Source: Octopus vulgaris
Lineage: Eukaryota
Assembly (NCBI GenBank): GCA_951406725.2
Contig: OX597817.1
Location: 81,282,001-81,346,000, forward strand
DNA: 64,000 nucleotides
Direction of reading: 5' to 3'
The notes under the pieces are model-generated. The model had not been told where the DNA came from, made no database searches, and saw only the letters and a program-made list of their open reading frames with translations. Positions 681 through 50,380 of the stretch are shown here, piece by piece. The position numbers were made by a program, and so were the translations under genes. Within the stretch, counting starts at the first letter, position 1. Every line of letters begins with the position of its first letter.

Positions 681-1539
681 GAACCATATATATATATATA
701 TATACACCCAGAACCACACTAATAGCTTAGGAGTGAAATTTAGGATTTCTCAGTTTTCTGTGTATCGATTTTGATAAAACTTTTAACAGCTGGTTTGCTC
801 ACTATGGCAACATCATTATTGTTTTCATTATTCTGTATAACATTCTTTCTTTTTTATTGCAGTTTCTTCAGTTTTTGGGTGAACCACACTAATAGCTTTT
901 AAATGAAAATAGCCCATCTAGACATTTCTTTTTCAGAAAATGAAGGATAATGGTACATATTAAGCATACATTGCGTATATATTTATCAGAAAAACCTTAA
1001 TAACATTGTAGCATTTATTGACATAATGAATTATTTAACCACAGGATTGCCATTTCGATGGATAACTTCAAAAACCCTATTAGTTATGGAATCTGTCAAT
1101 TTCTTAATAGTAACAGGTTGGACAGCCTCTGCTGCAGCTTTGATGATCGCCCATAATACATGTTTCAACATAAATTGGCATCCATTGGCATAAACATCTT
1201 GTTTAATGATGAACCAAAGACTACCCCATCAAAAAGCCATCTCTACTCATTTTTTCAAACATATATATATATTTATTTACACACATATTTATATGGATAT
1301 ACATACATACATGCATATATATACATGTGTGCATATATATATATACTAAACATATAAACACATAAGCATATGGATCTAGTTTTTTTCATTCACAAAATAT
1401 GCATTTTTTAAAAGGAAGTAAAAAATCTGAAAATCAGCTATAATAATGTAGTCTTGCAATCTTATTGCTATGAAGGTATGATGTTGTGGAGAAAAAAATT
1501 GAAAGAAAAAGTTACAGAGGTTTAAAGATTGGAAAAGGG

Positions 1540-3165
1540 AACTACTTAAGAAATTAGACGAGGCTTTGGAATCTGGCTCTGCAGACAGAGTGCTGGCAGC
1601 GAGAATGGTCTTGTACCGTCACCTCAAAGCCAAGCATGAAGGCTGCAGAGTTAGAGCTAAGCTACGTGCAGTGAACCGAGAAGGTATTAACATTGCCGGA
1701 TGGGCTCGTCATGTGGAGTGTCAGAGGAGCAAAAAAGCCTCTATGAAGTCTTTAACTGATGAACAAGGGTATAAGATCTATGAACAGGAAAAGATGCAAA
1801 AGGCCTTTCACCAGCATTTCGCCGGCTTGTTTGGGCAGGGCGACTCACTTGAGTGTGGGGAGCCCTTAAAGAACTTCCTCACCGGTGGGCTGCGGTTCTT
1901 GGCACGTGAGGTGGAATGCTGTGAAGGACCGATTACACTTGTGGAGGTCAAAGAGGTGTTGGCCGATTACGTCAGGGATAAGTCGCTGGGACTAAATGGT
2001 CTACCCTATGAGTTTTATCATAGCATGCCGGACTTGTTCGGGGACCTGCTGGCGGGCGTCTACACAAACAGGCAACAGAATGGCAGGATTCCCAGTTCTG
2101 TGAGTTGGGGAGTGGTGATGCTGATCCAGAAGGACCCGAGCAAGGGGAATAATATAAGTAACTATAGGCCCAAAATTCTACTCAATGAAGAGTTAAAGAT
2201 TTTGGCCAAGGTGTTAGCAAAAAGGTTGATGCGTGTCATGGAGAAACTTGTAGGGGGTGGCAAACATGTGCCATTCAGGGCAGGTCGATCCAGGACAATT
2301 TTCACTTTATACAGGGTTGATAAATTAACCGGCAAAGGTGGGGCACTGGCCCATTTAGACCAAAGTAAAGCATTTGATAGGGTAGACCACCTGTACCTGG
2401 CGGCAGTTCTCGAAGCAGCTGGACTGGGCCCAGACTTCCGTAGGTGAATCTCTGCAATGTATAGCGGTATCCAATCCACCATTCAGATAAACGGCTACCT
2501 GTCAGAGCTGTTTTCGATCAAGTGCTCAGTTCATCAAGAGTGTCCCCTTTCCCCGCTTCTGTACATTTTGGCTCTTGAGCCATTACTGAGGATGTTGAAG
2601 AATTGGAGCGAGGTGGCAGAGAGGGTGGAAGCTCTAGTTCAGACTTGGTCAAGATGGGCTCTATTCCTGAAAGGAAGGGCAGAAGTGGTACAGGTGTTTG
2701 TCGCATCTGTAATCACCTACCGCCTAACCATTGTCCCTTGCCCCAACTTGTGGCTAGACAAGTTGGAGCACCTCCTCTTCCGCCTATTGTGGAAGGGAGG
2801 AAAGCCACTTGTAAGGCGTTCCGTCTGCTGCTAGGGACCACTAAAGGGTGGGTTAGGGATGCCATGGCTTATGATGCGCAGACATGTGTTGAGGCTGAGA
2901 CATCTCTGGCGCTACCTGGAAGGTGATAAGGTGTGGAATTCGCTGGTGGAAGAATTCTTTCCACAACCAGCCTCCTTAGAGAGATTTAAACCCGGTTTTA
3001 TAAAAAGACGGAATCTGACAGAATAGCAAAAGGAGTGTTAACAGGCACTCATGTTGATCCACAAGACAGGCAAGGCTGGCAGTGGGAATACCAGCTCAGT
3101 TTTGTATAAAGGGCTGGTAGAGGCTAAAGATGATGATGTCCTAGGAGGGGCTCTGGGGTTGGTTC
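1540..3165 (+). mobile_element. Decayed L1/Tx1-clade LINE ORF2 fragment
   Basis: Motifs DKSLGLNGLPYEFY, NYRPKILLN, LDQSKAFDRVDH and QECPLSPLLY across ORFs 1566..2447 and 2457..2834; stop codons present; the YADD segment appears deleted. Confidence 0.85.
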
Positions 3166-3583
3166 AATGACATGGCTACTACAGCTGGATGCCTTTCCTA
3201 ACACCAATCACTTTACAGAGTGTACAGGATGCTTTTATACAGCACCAGCAGAGGTGTTTTTATGTGACACCAGCACAGGTGCTTTTTACATGGCACCAGC
3301 ACCAACAAGCCCACATGATTAGGATCACTCAGCTTGTGGGCTCATGGGTGTTGACGCCACATAAAAGGCAGCTGTGCCGGTGCCATGTAAAAGTGCTTAT
3401 GAACAGGAAGGAAAAAACCTGGACACATAAAATGATGATGATAAGAAGGAGGACGATGACGACAATAATGACAAATGATAGCAATGATGATGGTGCTGAT
3501 GACGATGACAACGATGATAACGATAACAATGAAGATGCTACTAAGATGATGATCTTTAGGAAATTCAAGAAAAATGTACAAAC

Positions 3584-24384: not shown

Positions 24385-25089
24385 TACATATATATATATA
24401 TGCATACATAAATGTAAAAGTTTACTCTCTCTCTCTCAATACACACACACAAACTCAGATCTGTGTGTATCTAAAACACCATCTGTGTAAAGTGGTGACT
24501 GAGAAAAATAAAAGATCGTTAACTGGTTTGTTGTGAGATAGAACATAAGGACCGCCTCTGGGTGCTAAAAGGTGAACGATGATGAACCGGAGGAAGAGAA
24601 TAAGGGGTATAACTGGTTCAGGTTTATAAATTGATCTTTAGCTATGGGAAGCTCTCATTGTTTCTTTTCGGTTCATAAATACCGAAGACGAACTCTGTCT
24701 AACCAGGATGAGATTTGAACTCGGATAGAATACACAATCATAAACAAGGTGCCAGCAAAGTAAGGAGGCAGTTTGCTACCGCCAACGCTGTTGATGTTGT
24801 TTTCGTGGAGTTTTACATACATAAACATGAATATATATGTACGGGAGATACACGTACGTGCATATATACATATACAGAAAAGCACACATACGTACATATA
24901 TACATATACACAAAGGTACACGTACATGCATATATATATATATATATATACGCAAAGATACACGTATATACATAAACACAAATATGTATGCAAGTATAAA
25001 CATATTTGCATGAATGCATTTACGTGTTCGTGTATATGTATATATTCGTGCATTTATATGTGTGTGTGTGTGTACACACGCGTGTGTTG

Positions 25090-25120
<31 letters not shown>

Positions 25121-25481
25121 GCACGAACACAGGAAGAGAATCAATGCTGGAGTGAGGAACGGCGATAATATATTTATATATACAGAAAGAGAGAGAGAGA
25201 GAACATGCGAGGAGCGTATTATTGCGCCCATTGCTAGAACAGAACCCGTAGCTATGGCCGAACTATACAGGGGGAAAAAAATTAGCACCTCCGACGACAC
25301 TATTTTGGGGCACTATTTTCAAAGGTGGTGAAGGCGCACGGTTGTGATGCTTGCTCAAGGAAAAATAAATCGAAGCATGTGTCTATACACAGCTCTTACT
25401 GTTTTTCCACTTTATCCTTAATTTTTCTACTGATTATAGTTTTTTTTTTTAGTTTCCAGTGGTATGTCTATGATGACTTAC

Positions 25482-25533
25482 CTGATACATTTCCAACTGG
25501 GATGTGATCCGTCGACGGTGGTTCTATAGACAT
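25482..25533 (-). CDS. ZNF236: ZNF236-like first coding exon (MSIEPPSTDHIPVGNVS-)
   Basis: ATG at 25533, 52 bp ending G|gtaagt. Phase 1 joins exon 2 (G+AT = Asp). CpG-containing surroundings are consistent with a gene 5' end. Confidence 0.75.
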
Positions 25534-26449
25534 ATTTTTTCTTTTGAAATATTATTCACAAAATGGTGGTTGGTAATGAAAGGGGGAGGGAGAGGCAATA
25601 GAGAAGCTCTCGTCGTCACATCGAGGCTTGGAATACGACTGATGTAAAGGCCCCGGATGACAACTGCAGTTGCTGCTGCTGGCTGTTATTTTTTTTTTTT
25701 TTCCTTTTTGAAATTTTTGGTTGACTTCGGAAGGATTTTATGTAGGAATGGTCTCTGAGGGCTCGCCTTTTAATATCAGCCCCCAATTCTATGATACAAG
25801 CTGTTTTTAAATTATGAAACTTTAAAAAAATCTTCCATCAAAATTTCATGTTAATTTATGTTTCAAACACCGGCTTTATACTGACAAAGTTCTTTTACTA
25901 AATACTTCATTATATTTAAAATTAAATGTAAGACAGGCAATATATTTCAGCAGAAATATGATGATGAAAGGCAGTATTTTGGTAGAGTTTTGGAATTGGT
26001 AGCTCTGAATTATAGTGTCAGGACAAAAAAAAACATGGGTTTCTTGTTAAATTTCTTCTAACCACTTATATTTCAAAATTTCATCACATTATTTTCATGC
26101 TGATGAAAATCGCATTCATTTTTCTAATCAGAAAATTTGGTGAAATTTGATATATTTCAAATGGGTGAAAAAAAAATTAAGATTTATGACATGGAATTGG
26201 GAGAGGTAGAAAAATAGAAACAATTTTAATTTTGTTGGTGAAGAAAATTGGCAAAATTTTGTAAAAGCTATCGTTAAATGGTGGGAAATCTGAAAACTAT
26301 GGAAGTGGAAAGGATGAAAACTGGAATTTGGTGGTTGGGGTGGGGGGAATTCTTCCAGAAGCGTAATCCAGTGACCTGGACTGATATATATACATGTATA
26401 TATAGAGAGAGTTGGGGCAGGAGACATGCATGCATGTAATACCCATGCA

Positions 26450-35950: not shown

Positions 35951-37088
35951 GTAAGACACTAAAATATTTCTTAAAGTTTTATTTTGGCTTCCTTTATTTG
36001 TCTTTCTATCGTTTGTTTTATCCGCAGTTAAAGTTGAAACATGATAAAGCTTTATTTATTAAAAAAAAAAATGAAGCCCAAAACGTATTCGAAATGATTC
36101 TGCTGAGTTTTATAAAGTGTTTAACAAGGTTCCTCTTACCGCCTTAACAATATCTACTCCTACTTCCCCCTCTTTCAAAAAAAAAAAAAAAAAACGTTAC
36201 CTCACACTAACATTCTTAATTTATAACAATTCTTCAAATTGTTGTTGTTTTAAAATTTTAAAAGAACAATGATGTTCTTAAAATTCCGATCAAGTACCGA
36301 AAGCAAGCAATTTATGAACTAACCTTCTAATGATTAATTGAAAAAAAAATTTTTTATTAAAAATATATAGCTAACATTAAAAATGAATAAAAGTTGATCT
36401 AGGTATAAAAGCGTTTTATTATTATTTTCGTAACAAAATTTCAGAAGTCGATAATATTTTTATAGTGAAAAAGCCTAACGGTATGGTGGGTGTTAAATTA
36501 TTTCGTGTAGCAAATAAGTGCACTGGACTTCGGACTGAATGTTAAATTTAGTTCAAATACAATCAGTGCCGTCTTTGCATTTCTTCCCTCCGTGATCGAT
36601 AAAATGAGGATCCATCAGTAATATATAATATATATAATAATTTAAATATACATTATATTGGTCGATGTTGTCGACAATGACCCCAAGACTAGACTTCGAA
36701 AGAAATTAAAAATACGGTAAATATAGAATAAAGGGGAAATAAACGCGTATGGATTTAGGACAGGGGGTGCGTTCTCTATTGTCGGAGATTAAAAAAACTT
36801 TAAATTGAGTGGATGAGGTAGGAGAAACAGAGGTAAACAAAAACATTCGAATTTCCGTTTGTATTTTTTGTTCTGATGTAATAGTTTCAGTTTACTTCTT
36901 CAACATTTACTGGATTAATGTTGAAACGTTGTCTTTTTCCTTAAACGCTGTCAAGAAGAAAGTTAGTGTATAAAGTTGTTTGTGGCATATTTTGCACAAA
37001 TGAAATTGAAGAAAATTTGTTTCTGCCAAGGGAGGTCACTCTGGTTTAAGTTTAATTCTCTTCCCGGTGAAAGAAAACGTCTAAAAAC

Positions 37089-37099
37089 AAATATGGCGG
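37089..37099 (+). promoter_or_regulatory. YY1-type motif (aaatatggcgg) upstream of USP34
   Basis: Matches AANATGGCG, common near housekeeping-gene TSSs; lies about 150 bp before the ATG in a CpG-containing stretch. Confidence 0.4.
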
Positions 37100-37246
37100 A
37101 TTGTTGAATGCTTAAAAAAAAAAAAAAAGGTATGGAAAACAAAAAACTTTTTCTCACGTTCGATTCGATTTTGTGATTCTGTCATGTCGAGTCGCTTATA
37201 ATTTATTCAGCAAGATTTCCTTGCGGTGTTTCTCAAGATTCTGAGA

Positions 37247-40200
37247 ATGTGTGATGTATGCTCTGGCCTGTTGTCCTTATTCGATAGCCACGATGAGCGG
37301 CTTCACAGCGGTGGTGGTCTTCGTCTGGGAAAGAATGAGATTCTGTCTGTGATTCAATACGTAAATATATGGCCTCAGAAACAATGTATGTGCTGCTACA
37401 AAGAATTTAAGAACTTTGAACGATTGAACAATATTGTTCAAATCGTTTTGACTGTTGCGATTCGGCACATTCAGACTCTGCCTGATGACTACGCCAAGGA
37501 AAAAGAAAAACAAGAAAAGCGTGATCATTGTTCTGAAGATGCTGTTTCTGATATTTCTGACAAGAACAAATCGTCAATTGATGGCTTGTCATCGGAAGAA
37601 ACGGAAAAAAATGATGCAGAAGAACTCGATGAATCCGAAGTTTGGGCCATGGAAGAAAAAGACCAATTACTTCAAGTAGTTACGAAAGTCTTTCTCATGA
37701 ACTTCCCCTCGTATGTGGCTTACAAACATGTCGTTCATTCATCTCTAGAAGAATTGTCTCAGCAGGAAACTCGAGCCTTGAACAATTATTGTGAAATCTC
37801 CGATTCTGAAGTTCCTCTGTATCTCTTGCGCAATGTTTGTTTTTTCTGTGATAGTAACGGTGTCCAAGCACTGCAACAATGCTTCGAGAAAGCTACACCG
37901 GACACGCTTCCATTCACAGTGGCTCATACTCTCATCAACATTATTGCAAATCTTCGTCTTTGGATGAATATCGCTACTGTGATGCAATGTATTGTGCCAT
38001 TACGAACTGCTGTAATTCGTTATATGTGTAAATTATCCGATAAAGACCTGCGAATGGCCGGCACCCGGAACATGACAGACCTCATGTGGGCAGCTGTGAA
38101 AGAACCGTTGGATACACATTTTACATATGACAAAGAAGGTTTGGATTTAGCCTTTAAATATTTCACTTGTTCAACTCTGACAATTCGACTGGCTGGTATA
38201 GCTCAGATTAACCGTCAGATTGATTTGTATAATGAATGCTGCAATAACGATACTTTAGTAGATGCAGAAAATGTTGGTAATCATTTAGCTAAATGGCTTC
38301 TAGAAAATAAGATTATTGAGCATATTTTTGGTCCTAATTTGCATGTGGAAATCATCAAACAAAGCCAGATTATTTTAAATTTTCTTGCCGTTGAAGGAAA
38401 AATCACAAATGAACATATCGACTGTATATGGACTGCCAGTCAAATGAAACATTGTAGTAAGCAAGTTTATGATATATTGATTCCCCTTATAAAAAATTTA
38501 GAACTGCAATTGGTTCAGCATTTGTCTAACTTAGTATCTGCCCTTGATCCCTCTGCACACACTGAGTCTACTTTATATTTAGCATCTGCTCTCCTCAAGT
38601 GCATCTGGAGCACTTGTGTTACGTCACAGAGCCATAATGCTGCCGTCCATCACCAACAACAACAGCCAGCTGACCAGCCACAGAGCATTGTAGCTGCTAT
38701 TGAACAAGAGGAAGAAGAATTAGAACATGGTAAATCAAGCAAACCAGAAATGAGCAGCAGCGAAAGTCTACAACTTTCTGAAGGGGAGACCGACAAAGTC
38801 CCTGAGATGGACAGCAACAAGAGAATTGGAATGGTTGATAATAAAAATGAGGAATTGCCTTCAGAGGATGATCAAAAAGAGTTGAACAAGGCTGAAAACA
38901 AAGCTGGCTCAACACGACAACAGATTTCTCATGCCAAGAAACATGATGATTGTTCTGAGAAACAACAGAAAAGCTGCGAGCAGTTTTCGGCCAACAGTGA
39001 CAACAGTGATGAAAGCGACATGGATGAAGGTACTCATCGGCAGCTCACTGGCCTTGGTCAAGAGTTTGTGGCTCCTAACCAGGTGGGAGGTGGCAGTAGT
39101 GGTAGCGAAAGTGATGTAGAATGTAGTGGTTCTAGCGCTGGAGAAGGTCAAATATGCACATCACTGAAACATGGAATGCAAAAACGCCGAGGTGTCAAAA
39201 GACAGCCAGTGCCATTAAAATGTCAGCAAAGGCCCCCTAGAAACCGAAACGCTCAAGCTTATCGTGATACAGAGCAAGGTACATGTTCTGATGAAGACGA
39301 TGATGATGAAGAGGAGGAAGAAGAAGAAGAGGAGGAGGAAGAAGAAGAAGAAGAGGAGGAGGAAGTGGAAGAAGAAGAGGAGGAGGAAGAAATGGAGTCA
39401 GAATATGAAGAATCTGATGATGAGATTCTAAAGCATGCTAAAATGGTACATATGAAACATTCTTGTCACGGTGAGAGTGAGGACAGTTCAGATTTTGATG
39501 CTAACGAGTCGAGAAGAGCAAAGCTAATGCACGAGACCAAACTTCGTTATGAGACTCAACATGCACTGCAAGAACATCATATACAGCTCCAGCAGCAAGG
39601 ACTTCTTAAACAACCTGCTTGTCTTGTTCTTCAGCGACAAGGCAAGAAACGCTATCGTATCCGGCCAGGGTTGCAAAGGTCTGAAAATCAGAACAGAATT
39701 CAACAAAGCTTGCATCCTGGTTCAGTTTCTCTTGAAGCTCGTGGTGATAGTGATGGTATTACTGGTCACTGTAAAGATTTGGAAGTTGGTGGGGACAGTG
39801 AAAAGAAAATGGCTATTTCAGATCCTGGTAACCTATCACAGGATTCACGAGATTCTCATGATTCTGAAGCCAGACCGTCCACATTAGCCAACCACGACAG
39901 TGCTGACAGCAGTATTCAAGGTGTGGCTTCCTCCCAATCTGCTCAGGAGTTTGAGAACCGTGCTGATGAAGCCGAAATGTTTGATTGTGCTAATTATATC
40001 CAACATATGCAAGCTCACCCACATGGACATATCCAAAGTGATTATATTGAAGACATATTGAGTCCTGAAGGTAGCTGCCACAGTTCCAGAATGAGTACAA
40101 AATCAGAAAAAAATATGGCAGATTTTGATGGGGAAGAAGTTCTCAGTGATGAGGAATTAGCTCAGATCAATGCACATCCTCATTTCAATACGCACCAAAT

Positions 40201-43200
40201 GCAACAACATCTCGCCAGTATGGCATCAATGTATCATACTCACATGCCACATGTCATTCATCCCAGACCATCTCAGAAAGAACTTTCAGTTTCATCTTGT
40301 ACCGATTTTACATTTGATGATGTCTGCAAGAAAGGGAACACGCTTCTCTGGGATCTTGTGCAAGATGACATGGCGTGTTTGCTACCCGATGGCTTGGTTG
40401 TTGAAGCAGAGAAAGCTCTTTACACTTTAGTGTGCTTTTCAACAGATAGGCGCATTAAAATCAAGTTCATTGAAGCATGCATTGAAAATGTGGCTGCGCA
40501 CCGGTCTGTAGTGGTATCTCTGCGTCTTCTGCCCAAAATCTTCAGCTCTTTTCAACAGTACCGCAGTGGCTCTGACAACCATGCTGTGACTATGTGGGCA
40601 GAAAAAGAACTGAATATGATGTCTCATTTTTTTAGTGATCTTATCCATTATACTGAGAGCCGAAAATGTGATCTACAGAAAAGTACATCCCTCTACAGTC
40701 ACAAGGAACAAATTAAGGTGAGGCTTTTGTTTTTAACTGGTGTGTTCAGTGCTCCTGGATCACCAGATAGTTTCCGTCTAAGTCAAGAACAGGTGGATAC
40801 TTTGTGGGCTTGTCTTGCTTTAGATCCAGAATGTTCTGATGAATGCTTGAGCTGGTTTCTTAATCAAGCCAAGAGCAAAGAGCATCACCATGCCATGTGT
40901 TTGGAAACATTCAAGCACATATTTCTTGAGAAAATGCCTCAGCTTAAACCTGAATCAATGAGTATGATCGGTTTGAATCTTTTCCAACAATTATCACACT
41001 TGGCAAGAATTGCAAATGCTTCTATAGATAATCAGTTGTCTGAGGACCAAGTGTGCGGCATGGACCAGCTGTGGCAAATTGCTCTACGGGCTTTGAATAC
41101 AGACGTCAGTATCACAGCCATCCAGTTCTTGAATAACTATTACATCAATTATGGAAATGGACTGTTGGAAAAAGAAGATGAATTTATTCGTCGATGCATG
41201 GACAGTCTTTTAACTGCCTCTCAGAAAGTTGAAGAAAATCCCGACATGAATCTTCTTGTTATTCAAAGAGGTTTGATTTTATTAAAAAATCACTTGGAAG
41301 GTTTTCGAAAAAGATATGCTTACCACCTCAGAAACTGGCAAATCGATGGACATGGCATTGTGAGTCACCAATGTAATGTACACGAGAAACAGTCAAGCCC
41401 AATTCGAATTCTCTTACAGCCAGCTGGTATCTCAGAAAAAACTCCATTAGATATGTTGTCTACTGATCTCATTGCAGAATTACGGGCTGAAGTTGCTCGG
41501 TGGTGGGAAGCTCTCCAGAAACAGCAACAACTTCAACGCCAGCAGTCCTCTAGTAACCATGGTAATTCAATATTGTCTCCTATCCTTGGCGCTATGCTGG
41601 GGGATGGGCCAATACGGATGATTACTCTTGGGCAGGAGCTTACTGTAGATAACGATGAGAAAACTTTGAGTGAAATGCAGTTTAAGGACTTGCAACTTGT
41701 TTTTGTTTCTGTTGGTGCAAGTAGACCACAGAGAAAGATGGATGGAACATTGCCATCATCATGCCTACCATCTCCTAGTCCTGAACAATTACCTATGATG
41801 ATACTTTTGCAAGAGCCAAGCTTCGAACGTCTGCTTACTTTGTTGGAACAACTGAGTAATCTAAGCTTCTCAACAGCTGATTTAGAAAGTAAAGAAAGAT
41901 GGAATTTACAAAGTAAAGGCAAAATATTTTCTCGGCGGGTTTGGGAATTGTTGATGTTATTACCAACAAGTCCTGAAATGTTATATGGCTTCCGAAGTAT
42001 TATGCCATCAACTCCCTACAAAGAAGAGACTCCACCTGAAGAGCCTATTGACTGGAATCGGCTACTAGATCCACAAAGACCACACCGTTTAATGTATTCT
42101 TTACAGATAGTTGAAGCATTATCAAAAAATCCAAAATGTAAGAAAAAATCAATTTCTCGATCTGGAGGAGGAGGAGATGCTGATAGTGATCAAGTTCTGG
42201 AAGGTCTGGAAGTTCCTGAAGAAGTTTGGACCAAGCAGTTCATTTCAAAAGGAGGGCTCAGTCATTTAGTTGATATATTTAAATCAAGTACCTTGCAAGC
42301 CAAAGCAGATGAAACTTGGAACCAGTGGAATCAAGAATGCTTGGCTTATTTGCTACGTCTAATAAGTCAGTTTTCTGTGGAAAGGTCAGATGCTGAAGCA
42401 GGCCATGATGACCTCTTTGAAAATTATGAGTTACCCCGTAAGAAAATGAAACGTCAAAAAAGTAATTGTGATAAAATTGTTGTACCTCGTCTCAACCAAA
42501 CCATTCTGTCAATGCTAAATGTCAATACAGACTTACAGATCATCATGCAAATCTTGTTTGATGCTGCTATACCAATAGAAAACAATTTATGCAATACAGG
42601 CACTTGGGGGAGGTCAGAAGTTGTTCATTATGCTTTAAATTTTCTTGTATCTTGGGCATATTCATGTGAAGAACTAAAAGATGCATTTTGTTCATCTCCA
42701 AATTTCAATTCTTGGCTGAAAAGGTTAACCCTGGAAGCCCCAGAACCCTGCGTCCGCAAGGAAGTTTGTACTGGACTTTATCAATTATGCTTAGGAAAGA
42801 CTTCGGAAAACAGAAATGGTTATGCATTTCTGTTACCCATACTATCTAGTATGCTGTCATTTCTACCAGAAGCTCTATTAATAAAACCCCGAGTAAATGA
42901 TGCCTACCTGCAAGAGGAGAAGAAAGAGACATATGGCCCTGGTTGCCGTGACTATTTCTGGTTGGTATGCAGATTTGTTGATAACATTTCAAAAGAAGAT
43001 GCAAACACTAAATCTGACAGTCTCGTGAATTTAGATATGTTATGTAAAGAAATTGCTAATCATATAATCTCTCGCTCTTTTTATGAAACCAGGAATGGTT
43101 ACGAGGAGGATGATGCCCTGATTGGTCTTTTAAATCTTTGTACTGCTATTTTGAAACATGAACCACCATTCAAAACATCTGAAAATGGTAGAGTATTTCT

Positions 43201-46200
43201 TGAGGACATTTTTTGGTGTCTCTTTGCGTTGCCATCACCAGTCAACAGAAAGCTGCCTAAGTGTAAAAGTCAAGCATCTCGAGCTGCTGCTTACGACTTG
43301 CTTGTAGAAATGGTAAAAGGTAGTGTTGAAAACTATGCTATACTGCATGAAAAAATGATGAAACAACACAGTAAAGATTCTCATGTACCCTACCCATGGG
43401 ATTATTGGCCACATGAGGATGGACGATCAAAATGTGGCTATGTAGGTTTGACTAACCTCGGAGCTACTTGCTATATGGCTACATGTATGCAGCATTTGTA
43501 TATGATTCCACAGGCAAGGCAGTCAGTATTACAAGCAAAGTGTACAGACCAGACAAAGCATGAAGCCACACTGATTGAGCTTCAGAAGATATTTGCTTAC
43601 CTTCAAGAAAGTGAGAGAAAAGCTTATAACCCCAAGAGCTTCTGCAAGACTTACACCATGGACAAACAACCTCTGAACACAGGAGAACAAAAAGATATGA
43701 CTGAGTTCTTTACAGATTTAATAACAAAACTTGAAGAAATGTCTTCAGACATGAAAAAGCTGGTGAAAAGTTTATTTGGTGGTGTCCTAACTAATAATGT
43801 TGTTTCTCTTGATTGTCCACATGTCAGTCGCACTGTTGAAGAGTTTTATACTGTCCGATGCCAAGTTACAGACATGAAAAATCTATATGATTCGCTTGAT
43901 GAGGTTACAGTGAAGGATATGCTTGAAGGAGATAATATGTATACTTGCTCAAAATGTCAAAAGAAAGTCCGTGCTGAAAAGCGTGCATGCTTCAGAAAAC
44001 TTCCCAAGATCCTGTGTTTTAATACGATGCGATACACTTTTAATATGGTGACTATGATGAAAGAAAAGGTAAATACACATTTTTCTTTTCCATTACGCTT
44101 GGATATGTCTCAGTACATGGAAGTGAACTTGATGGGACCAGATAAATTACAAGATGATGACGATAAGAATGACACCTTCACGAAAGATGAATCTGACTGC
44201 CATGAATATGAACTGATTGGAGTAACCGTACACACGGGAACTGCTGATGGAGGACACTATTATAGTTTCATCAGAGATCGCATTAGTCAGTCTAAGACTG
44301 GATTTGATAAGTGGTACCTATTTAATGATGCTGAAGTGAAACCATTTGATCCTAGCCAAATAGCTGCAGAGTGTTTCGGGGGTGAGATGACAAGTAAAAC
44401 GTATGATTCTGTTACTGACAAATTCATGGATTTTTCTTTTGAGAAGACCAACAGTGCCTATATGTTATTTTATGAACGGTGTTCTCCGAAGAAGAAAGAA
44501 GTGCCTAATGAAGAATCTGATGCTGCATCAGAGCCGCCACAGAAATTCAACTTTGATTTGTCAAAGGAACTTGCTGACTGGATATGGCAAGACAACATGC
44601 AGTTTCTACAAGATAAAAATATATTCGAGCACACTTATTTTGGATTCATGCTACAGTTATGTGGTTACATTCAAACGACATTACCTCGAGATGACCCAAG
44701 AAAAGTGCCTCTGATGGTTGCACAGCTGAGTGCGTCCTTTGTCTTAGAAACACATATTCATGCCAAAGAAAAACCTACTATGCTTCAGTGGATTGAACTT
44801 CTGACAAAGCAGTTTAATTCCTGCCAAGCTGCATGTGAATGGTTTCTGGAGCATATGGCAGAATGTGATTGGTGGCCTCAGCAGATATTAATTAAATGTC
44901 CTAACCAAATGGTGCGCCAGATGTTCCAGAGGTTATTAGTTCACGTAATTACACAACTCAAAAATGCCCAGTATGACCTTCTAACCTCAGGGAATCCCAA
45001 TGATGACCAAACCAAATCCAACAGCCTCAGTGGTCAGACATGTGCTACCAAATTTATCAGACGTATGTTAGCAATTCTTGAGCAAGGTGTCCGACCCCAC
45101 AGCAAGTATCTAACAGAATATTTCAGTTTTCTTCTAGAATTTGCCAAGATGGGCGATGAAGAATGTTTTTTCCTAATCAATAACAATGCTATATCAGCAA
45201 TTGTTAATTTCTACATGGGTCAGAAAGCTCAAGAAAATTATGTTGAAATATTGTCAGATGATGATGAAGAAGATGACGTCATTGCAATGCCTGAAGATAA
45301 GCACAGACCTCTGGCACTAGATAAAATGATAGCGCTGATTGCACAGCTGGTGGAGAGGTCACGAGGAGAAGACAATCAGTTACGCCTGAGTGAAAAAGAT
45401 TATAACAGCATCATTGGTGGCAAAGGATTTCCATTCCTTTACAATCAAATTAAAGACCATATTAATGTACGGCAGACGTGCAATTTAATTTTTAGTCTCT
45501 GTCGCTGGAATGACTCTTTGGCATTGGCAATTGTTCAGATGCTTTTCAATGCTGTCAAAAAACTGAATGCAGAACAGGCGCAACCATTTTTTAAGTTAAT
45601 GTCTTTATTAGTTGAATTCATTGGAGGTCCACCAGGAATGCCTCCCTTTTTACAGTATATTCTTCAGCGATTCTGGGAGCTCACAGAATGTTGTCCTCAT
45701 CAGTGTCTTGAATGGCTCTCGAATTTGGTCACTAGGAATAAAATTGCCAATGCATGGGTACTACAGCAGATGGACAATTGGGTCGAAGGTTATCTTATTG
45801 CTCATGGCAATGTACGGGTAAGAAATGCAGCAAGTTTCTTATTGGTTTCCTTAGTTCCCAGCCTAAATTTTCGACAAGCATTCCGCACAGCGAGAAGCAT
45901 ACTGAGTCCACATAAAGAACTACTACTCTCCTCAGATGCACTAGCTGTTCTACATCAAATCTACGAGCATTTGTTATCACTGCTGTCGCGTGCACGTCTC
46001 TATGTTGACCCTCAGGTTCACGGCACCAGCAAACTAGTTTGTTACTTTGCTGTTGTCACATACTGTCTGATTTCTAAAAAGGAAAAGTTAATGTTTGGTC
46101 GCTATTTTGCTGATTTATGGCAACTATTTCAACCCAAGTTATCAGAACCTCAGATCTCAATGCACCACAACAAACAAGCCATGCTTATGTTCTGGTATCA

Positions 46201-48529
46201 AGTGTGTCTAGACTGCCCAGAGAATGTAAAACTTATTGTCACCAACACACATGTCTGTAAAAATATTGCTTTTAATTATATCCTCGCTGACCACGATGAT
46301 CAGGAAGTTGTCATGTTCAATCGTTGTATGTTGCCAGCCTACTATGGCCTACTGCGCATCTGTTGTCAACAGTCACGTTCTTTCACAAGGCAGCTCGCTC
46401 AGCACCAAAATATTCTGTGGGCATTTAAGAACATTTCTCCTTATCCTGCCCAGTATACTGCTGCTGTTGAAGAACTCTTCAAAATGATGCGAGTCATGTC
46501 AATGAAGCACCAAGACAGTTCTGAAGAAGAATTGAAGGCCATCAATAACTTCAGGCGAACTACTATCCAGATGTACTTGCAGCACTTGGATGCTCGATCT
46601 GGCTGGCAAACACTCATCAACAGCTTCAAAATTCTAGTTGATAGTACAGATGACAGACTACTCATTATTTACCAGCAAGGTTTGCAAATGATAACTGAAG
46701 CATTCTTTACTCTTCATGTGATGTACCACGAGGCTACAGCGTGTCATGTGACTGGCGATATTGTTGATCTCCTTGCCTTGCTATTGCCTGTCCTCAAAGT
46801 TGCCAGGCATTACTTGGAACGGAAGAACCCAAGTACTTTACATGTAAAGGAATGCATCTTTAACTGGAATGAAAGAGCAGAGTTTGTTCGCAAGCTTCTT
46901 ACTCTCTTGAATTCTTATACTCCACCTGAAATCCGTCAGAGTTGTTTTGAAGTCCTCAAAGAAATGGTACTCACTTTCCAAAAGGACATAATCCCTACTA
47001 TTGTTACAATTCTGCGAGATTCCCACAAAGCATTTCAGGACACCAACCTACCAGTGTCTGTTGGTCCTTATTTCCCACGCAGGGGTCAGAAGACCATCTG
47101 CTCTAAATCTAATGTCAGACCACCAAGGCCTCAGTTTCAGATGTTGCTACACTCCAACCAACTGGAAGCTTCCCGAAATGTTGATGATTGTTATGATGCT
47201 GCACTGTCTGACTTCTTCAATCAATATCACCTGTTTATTGACTTGCTATGCCGGGTTGCTGTCAATCAACATAACCTTACTAAAGACTTGATCAATCTGA
47301 GTGCAATGGTTGCTTATGAAGGGGTACCTCTTCATTCACTTTATTTTGCCAAATTGTGGAATGAAATCTATCATTTAGAGCAGTTTGATAAGAGTTGCAT
47401 CAAAGTATTGTGCAACAGCTATTATTTCATTGAGTATGTCAATGCAGTTCTATTGGATGAACGCATGTCTCTCAACAGCCCTATAATCTACCAATTTTTC
47501 TGCAATTTCTTTCCTAAGGTTCACCAACAAGTCCTCAATGATCAAGGTCAAAGTTTACTTGATAGTCTTGTGGCTTCTATCACCGCTGAAAAATCAGCAA
47601 CAGAAAATGTAAAAACTGATCAGGAACTTTTTTCTATATGCCAACGTATTAATGGTGACCTTAGAGCCATGCTTTTAATATTTTCTGTTCAACCTCCAAA
47701 ACAACTTAGTAGTTTACTAACAGACAGCCTGCAACACATTCACAGAGTGTGTTGTGATTACCAACAACGTCAGAGATCTGAAAATGAAGATTCTTCACTT
47801 GCTGCTAGTTCAACCAGTGTTGTTAGCTTATCTACTACGACTACTACTACTACTGCTACTACGAATACTCCTACAATTACTACCACTGCTGCTACATCTA
47901 CCGTTCCCACTGCAGTATCGGTTGCTACCAACAGCAGTAAGACATCTTCATCATCACCTCTTTCCAGTCCTCTTCCAACTTCATCAGCTGTTACTTCATC
48001 TCCCACCACAACTAGTATCAATCCAGGCATTAACATCGACCCTATTACTACTGCTGAGACGTTAACTGAAGTCCCAGTAACAGCCGAAAAGCTTACTCGT
48101 TCGGAACACTTAAACAGTTCGGAACCAGATGAGTCTATGGAGACACCTACAAAGCGCCAGCGATTCAGTAACGACCCTGATGAAATGGAAACCGACAACA
48201 ATGCTGAAGAGGTGTCCCCTGGTTTCCAGATAGCATCTGAAAGCTCTCTTAGTGGAACTGGTGGAATTGGTAGTGGTGCTGGCCAGACTGGTAGTGGTAG
48301 GCTGTCTTCAGAAGAAGGCAAAGAAACTGATACAAAATGTGAACAGCACAGTCCTAACAAAGGGACAGCAGCCACAACATCAGGAACAACAACATCGACA
48401 ACCACAACTACCAGTACCACTTCCACAGCTCTCTCTGGGGCACGGTCCATCCACAGAGAAAAACCCAATTTCTTAGACACTGTTATAAAACATATTGAAC
48501 ATTTGTATGGATTTCTTGGCCTCAAGTAA
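37247..48529 (+). CDS. USP34: Ubiquitin carboxyl-terminal hydrolase 34, full-length and single-exon (3760 aa)
   Basis: Starts MCDVC (compare vertebrate MCENC..WTQRQCLCCFKE). Cys box GLTNLGATCYM (Cys codon 43469), His box VHTGTADGGHYYS (His codon 44255), FNDAEV, and USP34-typical motifs WDYWPHED and NIAFNYILADHDDQ. The ORF-track start at 37226 is a GTG. Confidence 0.97.
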   Translation: MCDVCSGLLSLFDSHDERLHSGGGLRLGKNEILSVIQYVNIWPQKQCMCCYKEFKNFERLNNIVQIVLTVAIRHIQTLPDDYAKEKEKQEKRDHCSEDAVSDISDKNKSSIDGLSSEETEKNDAEELDESEVWAMEEKDQLLQVVTKVFLMNFPSYVAYKHVVHSSLEELSQQETRALNNYCEISDSEVPLYLLRNVCFFCDSNGVQALQQCFEKATPDTLPFTVAHTLINIIANLRLWMNIATVMQCIVPLRTAVIRYMCKLSDKDLRMAGTRNMTDLMWAAVKEPLDTHFTYDKEGLDLAFKYFTCSTLTIRLAGIAQINRQIDLYNECCNNDTLVDAENVGNHLAKWLLENKIIEHIFGPNLHVEIIKQSQIILNFLAVEGKITNEHIDCIWTASQMKHCSKQVYDILIPLIKNLELQLVQHLSNLVSALDPSAHTESTLYLASALLKCIWSTCVTSQSHNAAVHHQQQQPADQPQSIVAAIEQEEEELEHGKSSKPEMSSSESLQLSEGETDKVPEMDSNKRIGMVDNKNEELPSEDDQKELNKAENKAGSTRQQISHAKKHDDCSEKQQKSCEQFSANSDNSDESDMDEGTHRQLTGLGQEFVAPNQVGGGSSGSESDVECSGSSAGEGQICTSLKHGMQKRRGVKRQPVPLKCQQRPPRNRNAQAYRDTEQGTCSDEDDDDEEEEEEEEEEEEEEEEEEEVEEEEEEEEMESEYEESDDEILKHAKMVHMKHSCHGESEDSSDFDANESRRAKLMHETKLRYETQHALQEHHIQLQQQGLLKQPACLVLQRQGKKRYRIRPGLQRSENQNRIQQSLHPGSVSLEARGDSDGITGHCKDLEVGGDSEKKMAISDPGNLSQDSRDSHDSEARPSTLANHDSADSSIQGVASSQSAQEFENRADEAEMFDCANYIQHMQAHPHGHIQSDYIEDILSPEGSCHSSRMSTKSEKNMADFDGEEVLSDEELAQINAHPHFNTHQMQQHLASMASMYHTHMPHVIHPRPSQKELSVSSCTDFTFDDVCKKGNTLLWDLVQDDMACLLPDGLVVEAEKALYTLVCFSTDRRIKIKFIEACIENVAAHRSVVVSLRLLPKIFSSFQQYRSGSDNHAVTMWAEKELNMMSHFFSDLIHYTESRKCDLQKSTSLYSHKEQIKVRLLFLTGVFSAPGSPDSFRLSQEQVDTLWACLALDPECSDECLSWFLNQAKSKEHHHAMCLETFKHIFLEKMPQLKPESMSMIGLNLFQQLSHLARIANASIDNQLSEDQVCGMDQLWQIALRALNTDVSITAIQFLNNYYINYGNGLLEKEDEFIRRCMDSLLTASQKVEENPDMNLLVIQRGLILLKNHLEGFRKRYAYHLRNWQIDGHGIVSHQCNVHEKQSSPIRILLQPAGISEKTPLDMLSTDLIAELRAEVARWWEALQKQQQLQRQQSSSNHGNSILSPILGAMLGDGPIRMITLGQELTVDNDEKTLSEMQFKDLQLVFVSVGASRPQRKMDGTLPSSCLPSPSPEQLPMMILLQEPSFERLLTLLEQLSNLSFSTADLESKERWNLQSKGKIFSRRVWELLMLLPTSPEMLYGFRSIMPSTPYKEETPPEEPIDWNRLLDPQRPHRLMYSLQIVEALSKNPKCKKKSISRSGGGGDADSDQVLEGLEVPEEVWTKQFISKGGLSHLVDIFKSSTLQAKADETWNQWNQECLAYLLRLISQFSVERSDAEAGHDDLFENYELPRKKMKRQKSNCDKIVVPRLNQTILSMLNVNTDLQIIMQILFDAAIPIENNLCNTGTWGRSEVVHYALNFLVSWAYSCEELKDAFCSSPNFNSWLKRLTLEAPEPCVRKEVCTGLYQLCLGKTSENRNGYAFLLPILSSMLSFLPEALLIKPRVNDAYLQEEKKETYGPGCRDYFWLVCRFVDNISKEDANTKSDSLVNLDMLCKEIANHIISRSFYETRNGYEEDDALIGLLNLCTAILKHEPPFKTSENGRVFLEDIFWCLFALPSPVNRKLPKCKSQASRAAAYDLLVEMVKGSVENYAILHEKMMKQHSKDSHVPYPWDYWPHEDGRSKCGYVGLTNLGATCYMATCMQHLYMIPQARQSVLQAKCTDQTKHEATLIELQKIFAYLQESERKAYNPKSFCKTYTMDKQPLNTGEQKDMTEFFTDLITKLEEMSSDMKKLVKSLFGGVLTNNVVSLDCPHVSRTVEEFYTVRCQVTDMKNLYDSLDEVTVKDMLEGDNMYTCSKCQKKVRAEKRACFRKLPKILCFNTMRYTFNMVTMMKEKVNTHFSFPLRLDMSQYMEVNLMGPDKLQDDDDKNDTFTKDESDCHEYELIGVTVHTGTADGGHYYSFIRDRISQSKTGFDKWYLFNDAEVKPFDPSQIAAECFGGEMTSKTYDSVTDKFMDFSFEKTNSAYMLFYERCSPKKKEVPNEESDAASEPPQKFNFDLSKELADWIWQDNMQFLQDKNIFEHTYFGFMLQLCGYIQTTLPRDDPRKVPLMVAQLSASFVLETHIHAKEKPTMLQWIELLTKQFNSCQAACEWFLEHMAECDWWPQQILIKCPNQMVRQMFQRLLVHVITQLKNAQYDLLTSGNPNDDQTKSNSLSGQTCATKFIRRMLAILEQGVRPHSKYLTEYFSFLLEFAKMGDEECFFLINNNAISAIVNFYMGQKAQENYVEILSDDDEEDDVIAMPEDKHRPLALDKMIALIAQLVERSRGEDNQLRLSEKDYNSIIGGKGFPFLYNQIKDHINVRQTCNLIFSLCRWNDSLALAIVQMLFNAVKKLNAEQAQPFFKLMSLLVEFIGGPPGMPPFLQYILQRFWELTECCPHQCLEWLSNLVTRNKIANAWVLQQMDNWVEGYLIAHGNVRVRNAASFLLVSLVPSLNFRQAFRTARSILSPHKELLLSSDALAVLHQIYEHLLSLLSRARLYVDPQVHGTSKLVCYFAVVTYCLISKKEKLMFGRYFADLWQLFQPKLSEPQISMHHNKQAMLMFWYQVCLDCPENVKLIVTNTHVCKNIAFNYILADHDDQEVVMFNRCMLPAYYGLLRICCQQSRSFTRQLAQHQNILWAFKNISPYPAQYTAAVEELFKMMRVMSMKHQDSSEEELKAINNFRRTTIQMYLQHLDARSGWQTLINSFKILVDSTDDRLLIIYQQGLQMITEAFFTLHVMYHEATACHVTGDIVDLLALLLPVLKVARHYLERKNPSTLHVKECIFNWNERAEFVRKLLTLLNSYTPPEIRQSCFEVLKEMVLTFQKDIIPTIVTILRDSHKAFQDTNLPVSVGPYFPRRGQKTICSKSNVRPPRPQFQMLLHSNQLEASRNVDDCYDAALSDFFNQYHLFIDLLCRVAVNQHNLTKDLINLSAMVAYEGVPLHSLYFAKLWNEIYHLEQFDKSCIKVLCNSYYFIEYVNAVLLDERMSLNSPIIYQFFCNFFPKVHQQVLNDQGQSLLDSLVASITAEKSATENVKTDQELFSICQRINGDLRAMLLIFSVQPPKQLSSLLTDSLQHIHRVCCDYQQRQRSENEDSSLAASSTSVVSLSTTTTTTTATTNTPTITTTAATSTVPTAVSVATNSSKTSSSSPLSSPLPTSSAVTSSPTTTSINPGINIDPITTAETLTEVPVTAEKLTRSEHLNSSEPDESMETPTKRQRFSNDPDEMETDNNAEEVSPGFQIASESSLSGTGGIGSGAGQTGSGRLSSEEGKETDTKCEQHSPNKGTAATTSGTTTSTTTTTSTTSTALSGARSIHREKPNFLDTVIKHIEHLYGFLGLK
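39290..39391 (+). repeat. Coding (GAR/GAY)n tract encoding 34 almost purely acidic residues
   Basis: DEDDDD followed by poly-E with a single V, within USP34. Confidence 0.9.
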
Positions 48530-49666: not shown

Positions 49667-49879
49667 ATATATACGTGTGTGTGTGTGTTTGTGTATGTGT
49701 GTGTATATATATGTGTGTATGTGTGTGTGAATATATATGTATATGTATATATATATGTATATATATGTATATATGTATATATACGTATATATATATATAT
49801 ATGTATATATATGTATATATATATATATATGTATATATATGTATATATATGTATATATATATATGTATATATATGTATA

Positions 49880-49956
<77 letters not shown>

Positions 49957-50121
49957 ATATATATATGTATGTGTATATATATATGTATGTATATATATAT
50001 ATGTATGTATATATATATATGTATGTATGTATATATATGTATGTATGTATATATATGTATGTATGTATATATATGTATATGTATATATATGTATATATAT
50101 ATATATGTATATATATATATG

Positions 50122-50152
<31 letters not shown>

Positions 50153-50211
50153 GTATATATATATATGTATATATATATATATGTATATATATATATGTAT
50201 ATATATATATG

Positions 50212-50298
<87 letters not shown>

Positions 50299-50380
50299 GT
50301 ATATATATATATGTGTGTATATGTATGTATATATGTATGTATATATATATGTATATATGTATATGTATGTATGTATATAA
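49667..50380. repeat. About 710-bp compound (TA)n/(TATG)n microsatellite
   Basis: Direct reading; source of the spurious YI-rich ORFs. Confidence 0.97.

What the first reader, a model, noticed from the sequence alone, without database searches (positions are those of the whole stretch)
37247..48529. 11.3-kb single-exon USP34: retrogene or wholesale intron loss
Seen: 3760 codons with no intron, stop, frameshift or TE insertion, in a window where the neighbouring ZNF236-like gene has 52-303 bp coding exons and TE-filled introns. The catalytic Cys and His boxes are intact. Known: vertebrate USP34 has many dozens of exons. Inference: a full-length cDNA-mediated copy, exceptionally long for a retrocopy, is now under purifying selection and may have replaced the parental gene.
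Basis: partly seen in the sequence, partly recalled or inferred. Interest (0 to 1): 0.75.

Follow-up and report, generated by a model that had tools for sequence, protein, structure and literature searches.

The report
Octopus USP34 lost all coding introns
The only copy we found of the octopus gene for a very large protein-recycling enzyme, USP34, is one unbroken 11.3-kb coding stretch, whereas clams, snails and chitons splice this gene from many pieces; a DNA copy of its own messenger RNA likely replaced the original gene long ago, a known kind of event at an unusually large size.

Summary
Confirmed. Window 37247-48529 (+) is one 3,760-codon frame encoding a complete USP34, from start Met to C-terminal helix, with Cys and His boxes intact. 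Four probes find no second copy in the genome, while the same search sees exon-split paralogues such as USP9. The ancestral gene was intron-rich: isoforms of 12 of 12 bivalve, gastropod and chiton species differ by internal in-frame indels, and 51 of 78 animal loci gave called introns (81 positions). Octopus reads through these positions without scars. A second genome, sister to octopus in a tree (90% identity), is also intronless over residues 1517-2401, so the loss is likely older than the genus. Genomic k-mer shares of 0.98-0.99 argue against an artefact. Best reading: an old orphan retrogene (0.55); rival: cDNA overwrite in place (0.33). Synteny cannot separate them because coleoid chromosomes were reshuffled. 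A USP35/38-like gene is also intronless. The scan's earlier notes hold no intronless USP34 but list other octopus retrogenes. Known kind, unusual size.

The parts
37247..48529 (+). USP34 coding sequence, 3,760 codons plus stop, no intron
43442..44473 (+). USP catalytic domain (Pfam UCH, residues 2066-2409); other animals carry introns at about 12 shared positions here
43469..43471 (+). catalytic Cys2075 (GLTNLGATC)
44255..44257 (+). catalytic His2337 (HTGTADGGH)
44882..45730 (+). DUF3517 region (residues 2546-2828), shared with USP9
39290..39425 (+). acidic Glu/Asp run in the poorly conserved linker (residues about 480-930); in frame, not an intron
36001..38100 (.). CpG-undepleted zone (o/e 0.9-1.4), likely USP34's own unmethylated promoter region; it reaches about codon 280
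   Evidence: reading inferred with PMC9476566
37130..37210 (+). candidate 81-nt GT-AG intron in the 5' UTR, seen by eye only, untested
   Evidence: sequence
25482..25533 (-). first coding exon (52 bp) of the divergently oriented neighbour ZNF236, 11.7 kb from the USP34 ATG
24501..26000 (.). separate CpG-undepleted zone at the ZNF236 start; about 10 kb of CpG-depleted DNA lie between the two zones

Best explanation
This is the only USP34 gene found in the octopus genome; it has no coding introns, and it is likely an old orphan retrogene: a near full-length DNA copy of the spliced USP34 messenger that likely inserted at this site, likely gained a promoter and likely outlived the intron-rich parent. 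Shown: one intact full-length frame, no second copy in four probes, introns in other molluscs, scar-free junctions, the same state over 900 residues in a second genome. Inferred: reverse transcription of a germline mRNA of more than 11.3 kb by a retrotransposon enzyme, insertion, promoter gain, loss of the parent, and an age older than the genus Octopus. The protein is predicted to work as an ordinary USP34 cysteine-protease deubiquitinase.
For: No parent: probes of residues 133-466, 1031-1418, 2066-2418 and 2852-3218 each return only this locus, apart from one 30% hit at E 0.06. Control: the UCH profile finds 80 matches, mostly single exons; 2 of 80 span the whole domain in one frame. The closest paralogue, USP9 on C9, is exon-split. 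Ancestral introns: 12 of 12 mollusc isoform sets differ by internal in-frame indels from residue 97 to 3425; 18 of 18 short ORFs that I picked match a named mollusc protein best (74-100%) and run out at residues about 1002, 1043, 1330, 1399 or 1484; 51 of 78 metagenome loci gave GT/GC-AG introns at 81 positions, 35 seen in two or more loci. Precision: at 30 of the 35 shared positions at least 8 of 10 molluscs align to octopus without a gap. Loss is total, including the 5'-most sites (97, 169-186), whereas in-place loss is described as local and often 3'-biased (PMC3652778, passages); retroposition is called the most parsimonious reading when all introns are gone (PMC3548309, passages). Cellular RNA is retro-copied in this genome: C20 holds a USP9 piece with one exon-exon junction already spliced. 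USP34 and ZNF236 lie on different chromosomes in 10 of 10 invertebrates listed with both. Age: P0315; synonymous exon-end signal gone, 8 of 26 G-ending versus 34% background; synonymous CpG high to codon 280 and low after.
Against: Relocation is not shown. Coleoid chromosomes arose by fragmentation and mixing (PMC9068888, passages), so the lost linkage with ZNF236 is expected under either model. No poly(A) tail, target-site duplication or parental remnant was found. The head-to-head neighbour does not share the promoter, unlike amphioxus SYCP1. Mammalian retrocopies have medians of 500-1,100 nt (PMC13251070, passages), so an 11.3-kb copy is far in the tail, though an in-place overwrite needs an equally long cDNA. 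The genome search scores only its best candidates (26, 6, 6 and 4), and the assembly may have gaps. The taxon of P0315 is unknown and it covers 24% of the protein.
Confidence: 0.55

Rival explanations
1. Overwrite in place: one or several long cDNAs recombined with the original locus and removed all coding introns, leaving the ancestral promoter. The gene then moved only with the general coleoid reshuffle.
For: Explains at once why no parent or remnant exists and why the gene has its own promoter-like CpG zone. Precise junctions fit. A possible 5' UTR intron remains.
Against: Needs removal of dozens of introns out to the 5' end; reported cases are a few adjacent introns, often 3'-biased (PMC3652778, passages). 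ZNF236, USP9 and most other USP genes keep their introns.
Confidence: 0.33
2. Gradual, intron-by-intron loss by deletion or break repair, as in compact genomes.
For: Some compact animal genomes have nearly intronless USP34: single frames of 2,299-2,829 codons in L062, L070, L071, L072, and 3,419 codons in L069, which may be an RNA contig.
Against: This 2.8-Gb genome keeps long introns in neighbours and paralogues; those compact loci still keep a few introns; no scars.
Confidence: 0.05
3. A retrocopy coexisting with an intron-containing parent that is missing from the assembly or from the search.
For: Only the best candidates are scored, and the assembly may be incomplete (notes).
Against: Four separate probes are negative; much weaker exon matches are found with a profile; transcriptome-sized runs hold 0.98-1.00 of this locus's own 31-mers.
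Confidence: 0.05
4. Assembly artefact: transcript sequence built into the chromosome.
For: No read-level alignment was obtained here; both genome-sized samples are flagged as possible sources of the assembly.
Against: Three genome-sized runs from two samples (2018, 2023) hold 0.98-0.99 of 610 sampled words of 41000-47000, against 0.71-0.85 expected with exons of 104-200 nt; an unrelated 526-kb contig shows the same state.
Confidence: 0.02

Closest known systems
Amphioxus SYCP1 retrogene replacement (PMC5803294; abstract and passages)
   Same: Single coding exon, multi-exon orthologues elsewhere, no parental copy, invertebrate, head-to-head neighbour.
   Different: Coding exon about 3.2 kb against 11.3 kb here; SYCP1 shares a bidirectional promoter with its neighbour, whereas USP34 and ZNF236 have separate CpG zones 10 kb apart; relocation is argued there, untested here.
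Orphan retrogenes of human and mammals (PMC3548309, 25 genes; PMC4772013, 10 families; passages)
   Same: All coding introns gone, parent absent and usually without trace, strong conservation, CpG-rich promoter, predicted broad expression.
   Different: Here a mollusc; Ka/Ks and expression breadth not measured; I saw no length table in the passages, so no size record is claimed.
Reverse-transcriptase (mRNA-mediated) intron loss in place (PMC3652778; passages)
   Same: Precise loss of adjacent introns through a cDNA.
   Different: Reported cases involve a few introns with a 3' bias; here every coding intron is absent.
Human USP34 (PDB 7w3r) and mollusc USP34 orthologues
   Same: Catalytic boxes, domain order, both termini; 61-69% global identity to molluscs.
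   Different: Gene structure only. The human count of about 80 exons is recalled, not from a call. The in-frame splice variants seen in other molluscs have no intron to arise from here.

Membership tests
USP34 orthologue | USP catalytic domain closest to USP34, not USP9/USP24 | tested here: met
   7w3r E 2e-188 versus USP9X 4e-64; nests within molluscan USP34 in a tree, 99/98
USP34 orthologue | intact Cys and His boxes and full length | tested here: met
USP34 orthologue | deubiquitinase activity | not testable with these tools
   predicted from conserved residues only
Orphan retrogene | coding sequence without introns across junctions of multi-exon orthologues | tested here: met
   81 intron positions from 51 of 78 loci and 12 of 12 mollusc isoform sets, all read through
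Orphan retrogene | no intron-containing parent in the genome | tested here: met
   four probes negative, with an exon-detection control; limited by assembly and candidate caps
Orphan retrogene | locus differs from the ancestral parental locus | tested here: inconclusive
   unlinked from ZNF236 in 10 of 10 invertebrates, but coleoid mixing predicts this anyway; only one neighbour tested
Orphan retrogene | poly(A) tail and target-site duplication | tested here: inconclusive
   none recognisable by eye among A-rich flanks; not expected in an old copy
Orphan retrogene | transcribed | tested here: inconclusive
   runs of 62-119 million contig letters from several studies hold 0.98-1.00 of the words, but are only guessed to be RNA; the one run on record as RNA holds 0.33; CpG pattern fits a methylated gene body
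Orphan retrogene | purifying selection (Ka/Ks well below 1) | tested here: inconclusive
   no relative's DNA in hand; protein-level constraint is clear: 85% to molluscs in residues 2001-2400 versus 17-34% in linkers, 90% to P0315
In-place RT-mediated intron loss | gene remains at its ancestral locus | not testable with these tools
   no Nautilus or squid gene order available; the orthologue table of PMC9068888 was too large to read
In-place RT-mediated intron loss | 3'-biased, partial loss | tested here: not met
   5' sites at residues 97, 169-186, 278, 322 are absent too

The most novel reading that the evidence does not exclude
The coleoid stem went through a wave of whole-mRNA replacements of large housekeeping genes, in step with its genome reshuffle; USP34 (11.3 kb, dozens of introns erased at once) and the USP35/38-like gene are two markers of it, and cephalopod retrotransposons could copy unusually long messengers in full.
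Probability: 0.2. Interest if true: 0.72.

Novelty: new member of a known kind. Interest (0 to 1): 0.5.

Why it matters
It shows that a single-copy, deeply conserved gene with an 11.3-kb coding sequence can lose its whole intron set, and with it the alternative splice forms that other molluscs make, inside a large, intron-rich genome. That stretches the known size range of RNA-mediated gene replacement (3.5 times the amphioxus case). The change is in effect irreversible, so it is a clean marker for cephalopod phylogeny. With a second intronless USP gene, it makes a testable question of whether the coleoid genome reshuffle included RNA-mediated gene moves. It does not imply a new protein function.

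Tried and rejected
Shared bidirectional promoter with ZNF236: rejected, two CpG zones 10 kb apart. Nesting in a host intron: not seen; ZNF236 starts at 25533 and a GLD-2-like gene converges from about 65 kb downstream. Hidden in-frame introns: rejected. C20 DUF3517 hit as a USP34 parent: it is a USP9 fragment. C6 hit: 27-30% identity with stops, treated as noise. Exon-end AG enrichment at lost junctions (8 of 35, p 0.002) is explained by amino-acid constraint; the synonymous test is flat. Search for cephalopod fragments in the linker gave none above mollusc level among 127 hits; records near the window's genome may be left out. Atlas look-up of a downstream exon gave no hit; PDB did not confirm the UPF1-like exon. 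My intron caller misses junctions: 27 of 78 loci had no call, and several loci likely come from the same species, so shared positions are not all independent. Read-level evidence (depth, junctions, UTR introns, dN/dS) was not obtained. A linkage-group test with vertebrate neighbours was dropped for lack of power. Not in print as far as searched: 'USP34'+'octopus' 0 papers; listings showed no cephalopod USP34 or cephalopod orphan-retrogene title; one search was too loose to use. Most subscription journals are not held.

Full report
Observation. The window holds one long frame, 37247-48529 (+), 3,760 codons, with no N. It is USP34: human 7w3r at E 2e-188, USP9X at 4e-64; Pfam UCH 2066-2409 and DUF3517. 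Cys2075 and His2337 boxes are intact. The frame begins at the orthologous Met and ends at the orthologous C-terminal helix. Global identity to mollusc orthologues is 61-69%. Octopus-only insertions are at most 19 residues, so no intron is hidden in frame. The genome is an octopus: the neighbour ZNF236 matches an O. bimaculoides record at 94% overall and an O. vulgaris record at 98.6-100% in 7 of 8 mapped pieces, and that record's chromosome has the length of C4.

Copy number. Probes of residues 133-466, 1031-1418, 2066-2418 and 2852-3218 found only this locus, apart from one 30% hit at E 0.06. As a control, the UCH profile gave 80 matches, mostly single exons; 2 of 80 span the domain in one frame: this gene and a USP35/38-like frame on C6. 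USP9, the closest paralogue, is exon-split over at least 32 kb on C9. The searches score only their best candidates, so this is strong but not absolute.

The ancestor had introns. (a) Isoform sets of 12 of 12 gastropod, bivalve and chiton species differ by internal in-frame indels at residues 97, 169-186, 322, 341-343, 493-502, 735, 2170, 2578, 2725, 2761, 3379 and 3425. (b) 18 short ORFs that I picked all match a named mollusc protein best and run out at about residues 1002 (11), 1043 (2), 1330 (2), 1399 (2) or 1484 (1), as exons do. (c) Of 78 metagenome loci, 51 gave called introns at 81 positions, 35 in two or more loci; 27 gave no call, and some loci likely share a species. Positions 1003, 1399, 1484, 2170, 2401, 2726-2727 and 3379 occur both in molluscs and in these loci. 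At 30 of the 35 shared positions at least 8 of 10 molluscs align to octopus without a gap: the loss is precise.

Not an artefact. Three genome-sized runs from two samples hold 0.98-0.99 of 610 sampled words of 41000-47000; exons of 104-200 nt would give 0.71-0.85. Both samples are flagged as possible sources of the assembly. Smaller runs from several studies hold 0.98-1.00 and are guessed to be RNA; their size (62-119 million letters against 2.8 Gb) makes that likely, but it is inference. No read alignment was obtained.

Age. P0315, an unnamed ORF on a 526-kb contig, matches residues 1517-2398 at 90.5%, against 58-72% for other molluscs. It ends by a frameshift into the coding sequence's own +1 frame, across the ancestral junction at 2401, and spans 16 shared intron positions. 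Gene calls from the same source on 295- and 314-kb contigs are exon-sized 61-residue ORFs, so these calls are not spliced. In a tree of 26 rows it is sister to the window (100/100), path 0.12 against at least 0.61 to other molluscs, comparable to Mactra-Mercenaria (0.08) and Mya-Dreissena (0.15). It is likely a distant octopod or a squid or cuttlefish; I cannot tell which. The synonymous exon-end signal has decayed. Synonymous CpG is 1.3-1.5 times expectation up to codon 280 and 0.5-0.66 beyond, which fits an unmethylated promoter now covering several former exons and a methylated body, the pattern of broadly expressed octopus genes (PMC9476566, passages). This reading is inferred.

Surroundings. 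The order is an SLC22-like piece (+, weak Pfam hit), ZNF236 (-), USP34 (+), about 65 kb without a recognised gene, a GLD-2-like gene (-) and a UPF1-like exon (+; label recalled from its motif, not confirmed). ZNF236 and USP34 diverge with ATGs 11.7 kb apart but have separate CpG zones. Coleoid chromosomes arose by fragmentation and mixing (PMC9068888, passages), so this cannot prove relocation. Its supplementary table, which may bear on this, was too large to read.

Mechanism. Precise loss of every coding intron points to a cDNA. The genome does retro-copy cellular RNA: C20 carries 13 or more bases of one USP9 exon joined exactly to the next exon, followed by the unspliced downstream intron at 92% identity. 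Two routes remain: insertion elsewhere with loss of the parent (0.55), or overwrite in place (0.33). Total loss including the 5' end favours the first (PMC3548309, PMC3652778, passages). The absence of any remnant and the gene's own promoter zone fit both. Stepwise loss, a hidden parent and artefact share the rest.

Against uniqueness. Compact animal genomes also reach USP34 frames of 2,299-2,829 codons, and L069 has 3,419 codons but may be RNA. What differs here is total loss in a 2.8-Gb genome whose neighbours and paralogues keep long introns.

Comparison and novelty. It works like amphioxus SYCP1 (3.2-kb coding exon; PMC5803294, abstract and passages) and the mammalian orphan retrogenes. 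Membership is met for intron absence and missing parent, and inconclusive for relocation, expression and Ka/Ks. Median mammalian retrocopies are 500-1,100 nt (PMC13251070, passages). 'USP34' with 'octopus' gave 0 papers; listings showed no such case. I claim no size record. Earlier scan notes hold no intronless USP34 but report other octopus retrogenes and a four-intron loss (unchecked). Verdict: real, old, a new and unusually large member of a known kind; interest 0.5.

Noticed in passing
L006:160-2814 (G000:C6, about 95.84 Mb, +): A second intronless USP gene: an 885-codon frame with Usp38-like_N and a whole UCH domain, closest to USP35/USP38. Vertebrate USP35 and USP38 are multi-exon (recalled); possibly another replacement.
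   Followed up: partly
L038:1500-2152 (G000:C20, about 17.669 Mb, +): Fragment of USP9 with one exon-exon junction spliced and the next intron, with its SINE, retained at 92% identity: likely a retrocopy of a partly spliced pre-mRNA.
   Followed up: partly
L046-L050 (G000:C4, about 81.396-81.427 Mb): GLD-2-like poly(A) polymerase on the minus strand (PDB gld-2 E 7e-9), head-to-head with a UPF1-like first exon (label recalled).
   Followed up: partly
G000:C28 about 12.152 Mb and C15 about 59.820 Mb: Two UCH matches with the same score, span and stop, on different chromosomes: possibly a duplicated segment or fragment of a USP gene.
   Followed up: no
L069:389-10646; L062, L070, L071, L072: USP34 frames of 2,299-3,419 codons in metagenome contigs of unnamed animals: convergent intron-poor USP34; L069 may be an RNA contig.
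   Followed up: partly
window 1503-2444 (+): Non-LTR retrotransposon-like frame in a ZNF236 intron (RVT_1 E 3e-6, below cut-off).
   Followed up: no
window 49670-50380: About 700 bp TA/TATG microsatellite 1.1 kb past the stop; it explains the six overlapping 220-270-codon frames.
   Followed up: yes
L057:3-1016 and L058:9535-9999: SLC22-like transporter piece with a long open frame, converging on the ZNF236 3' end (weak Pfam hit).
   Followed up: no
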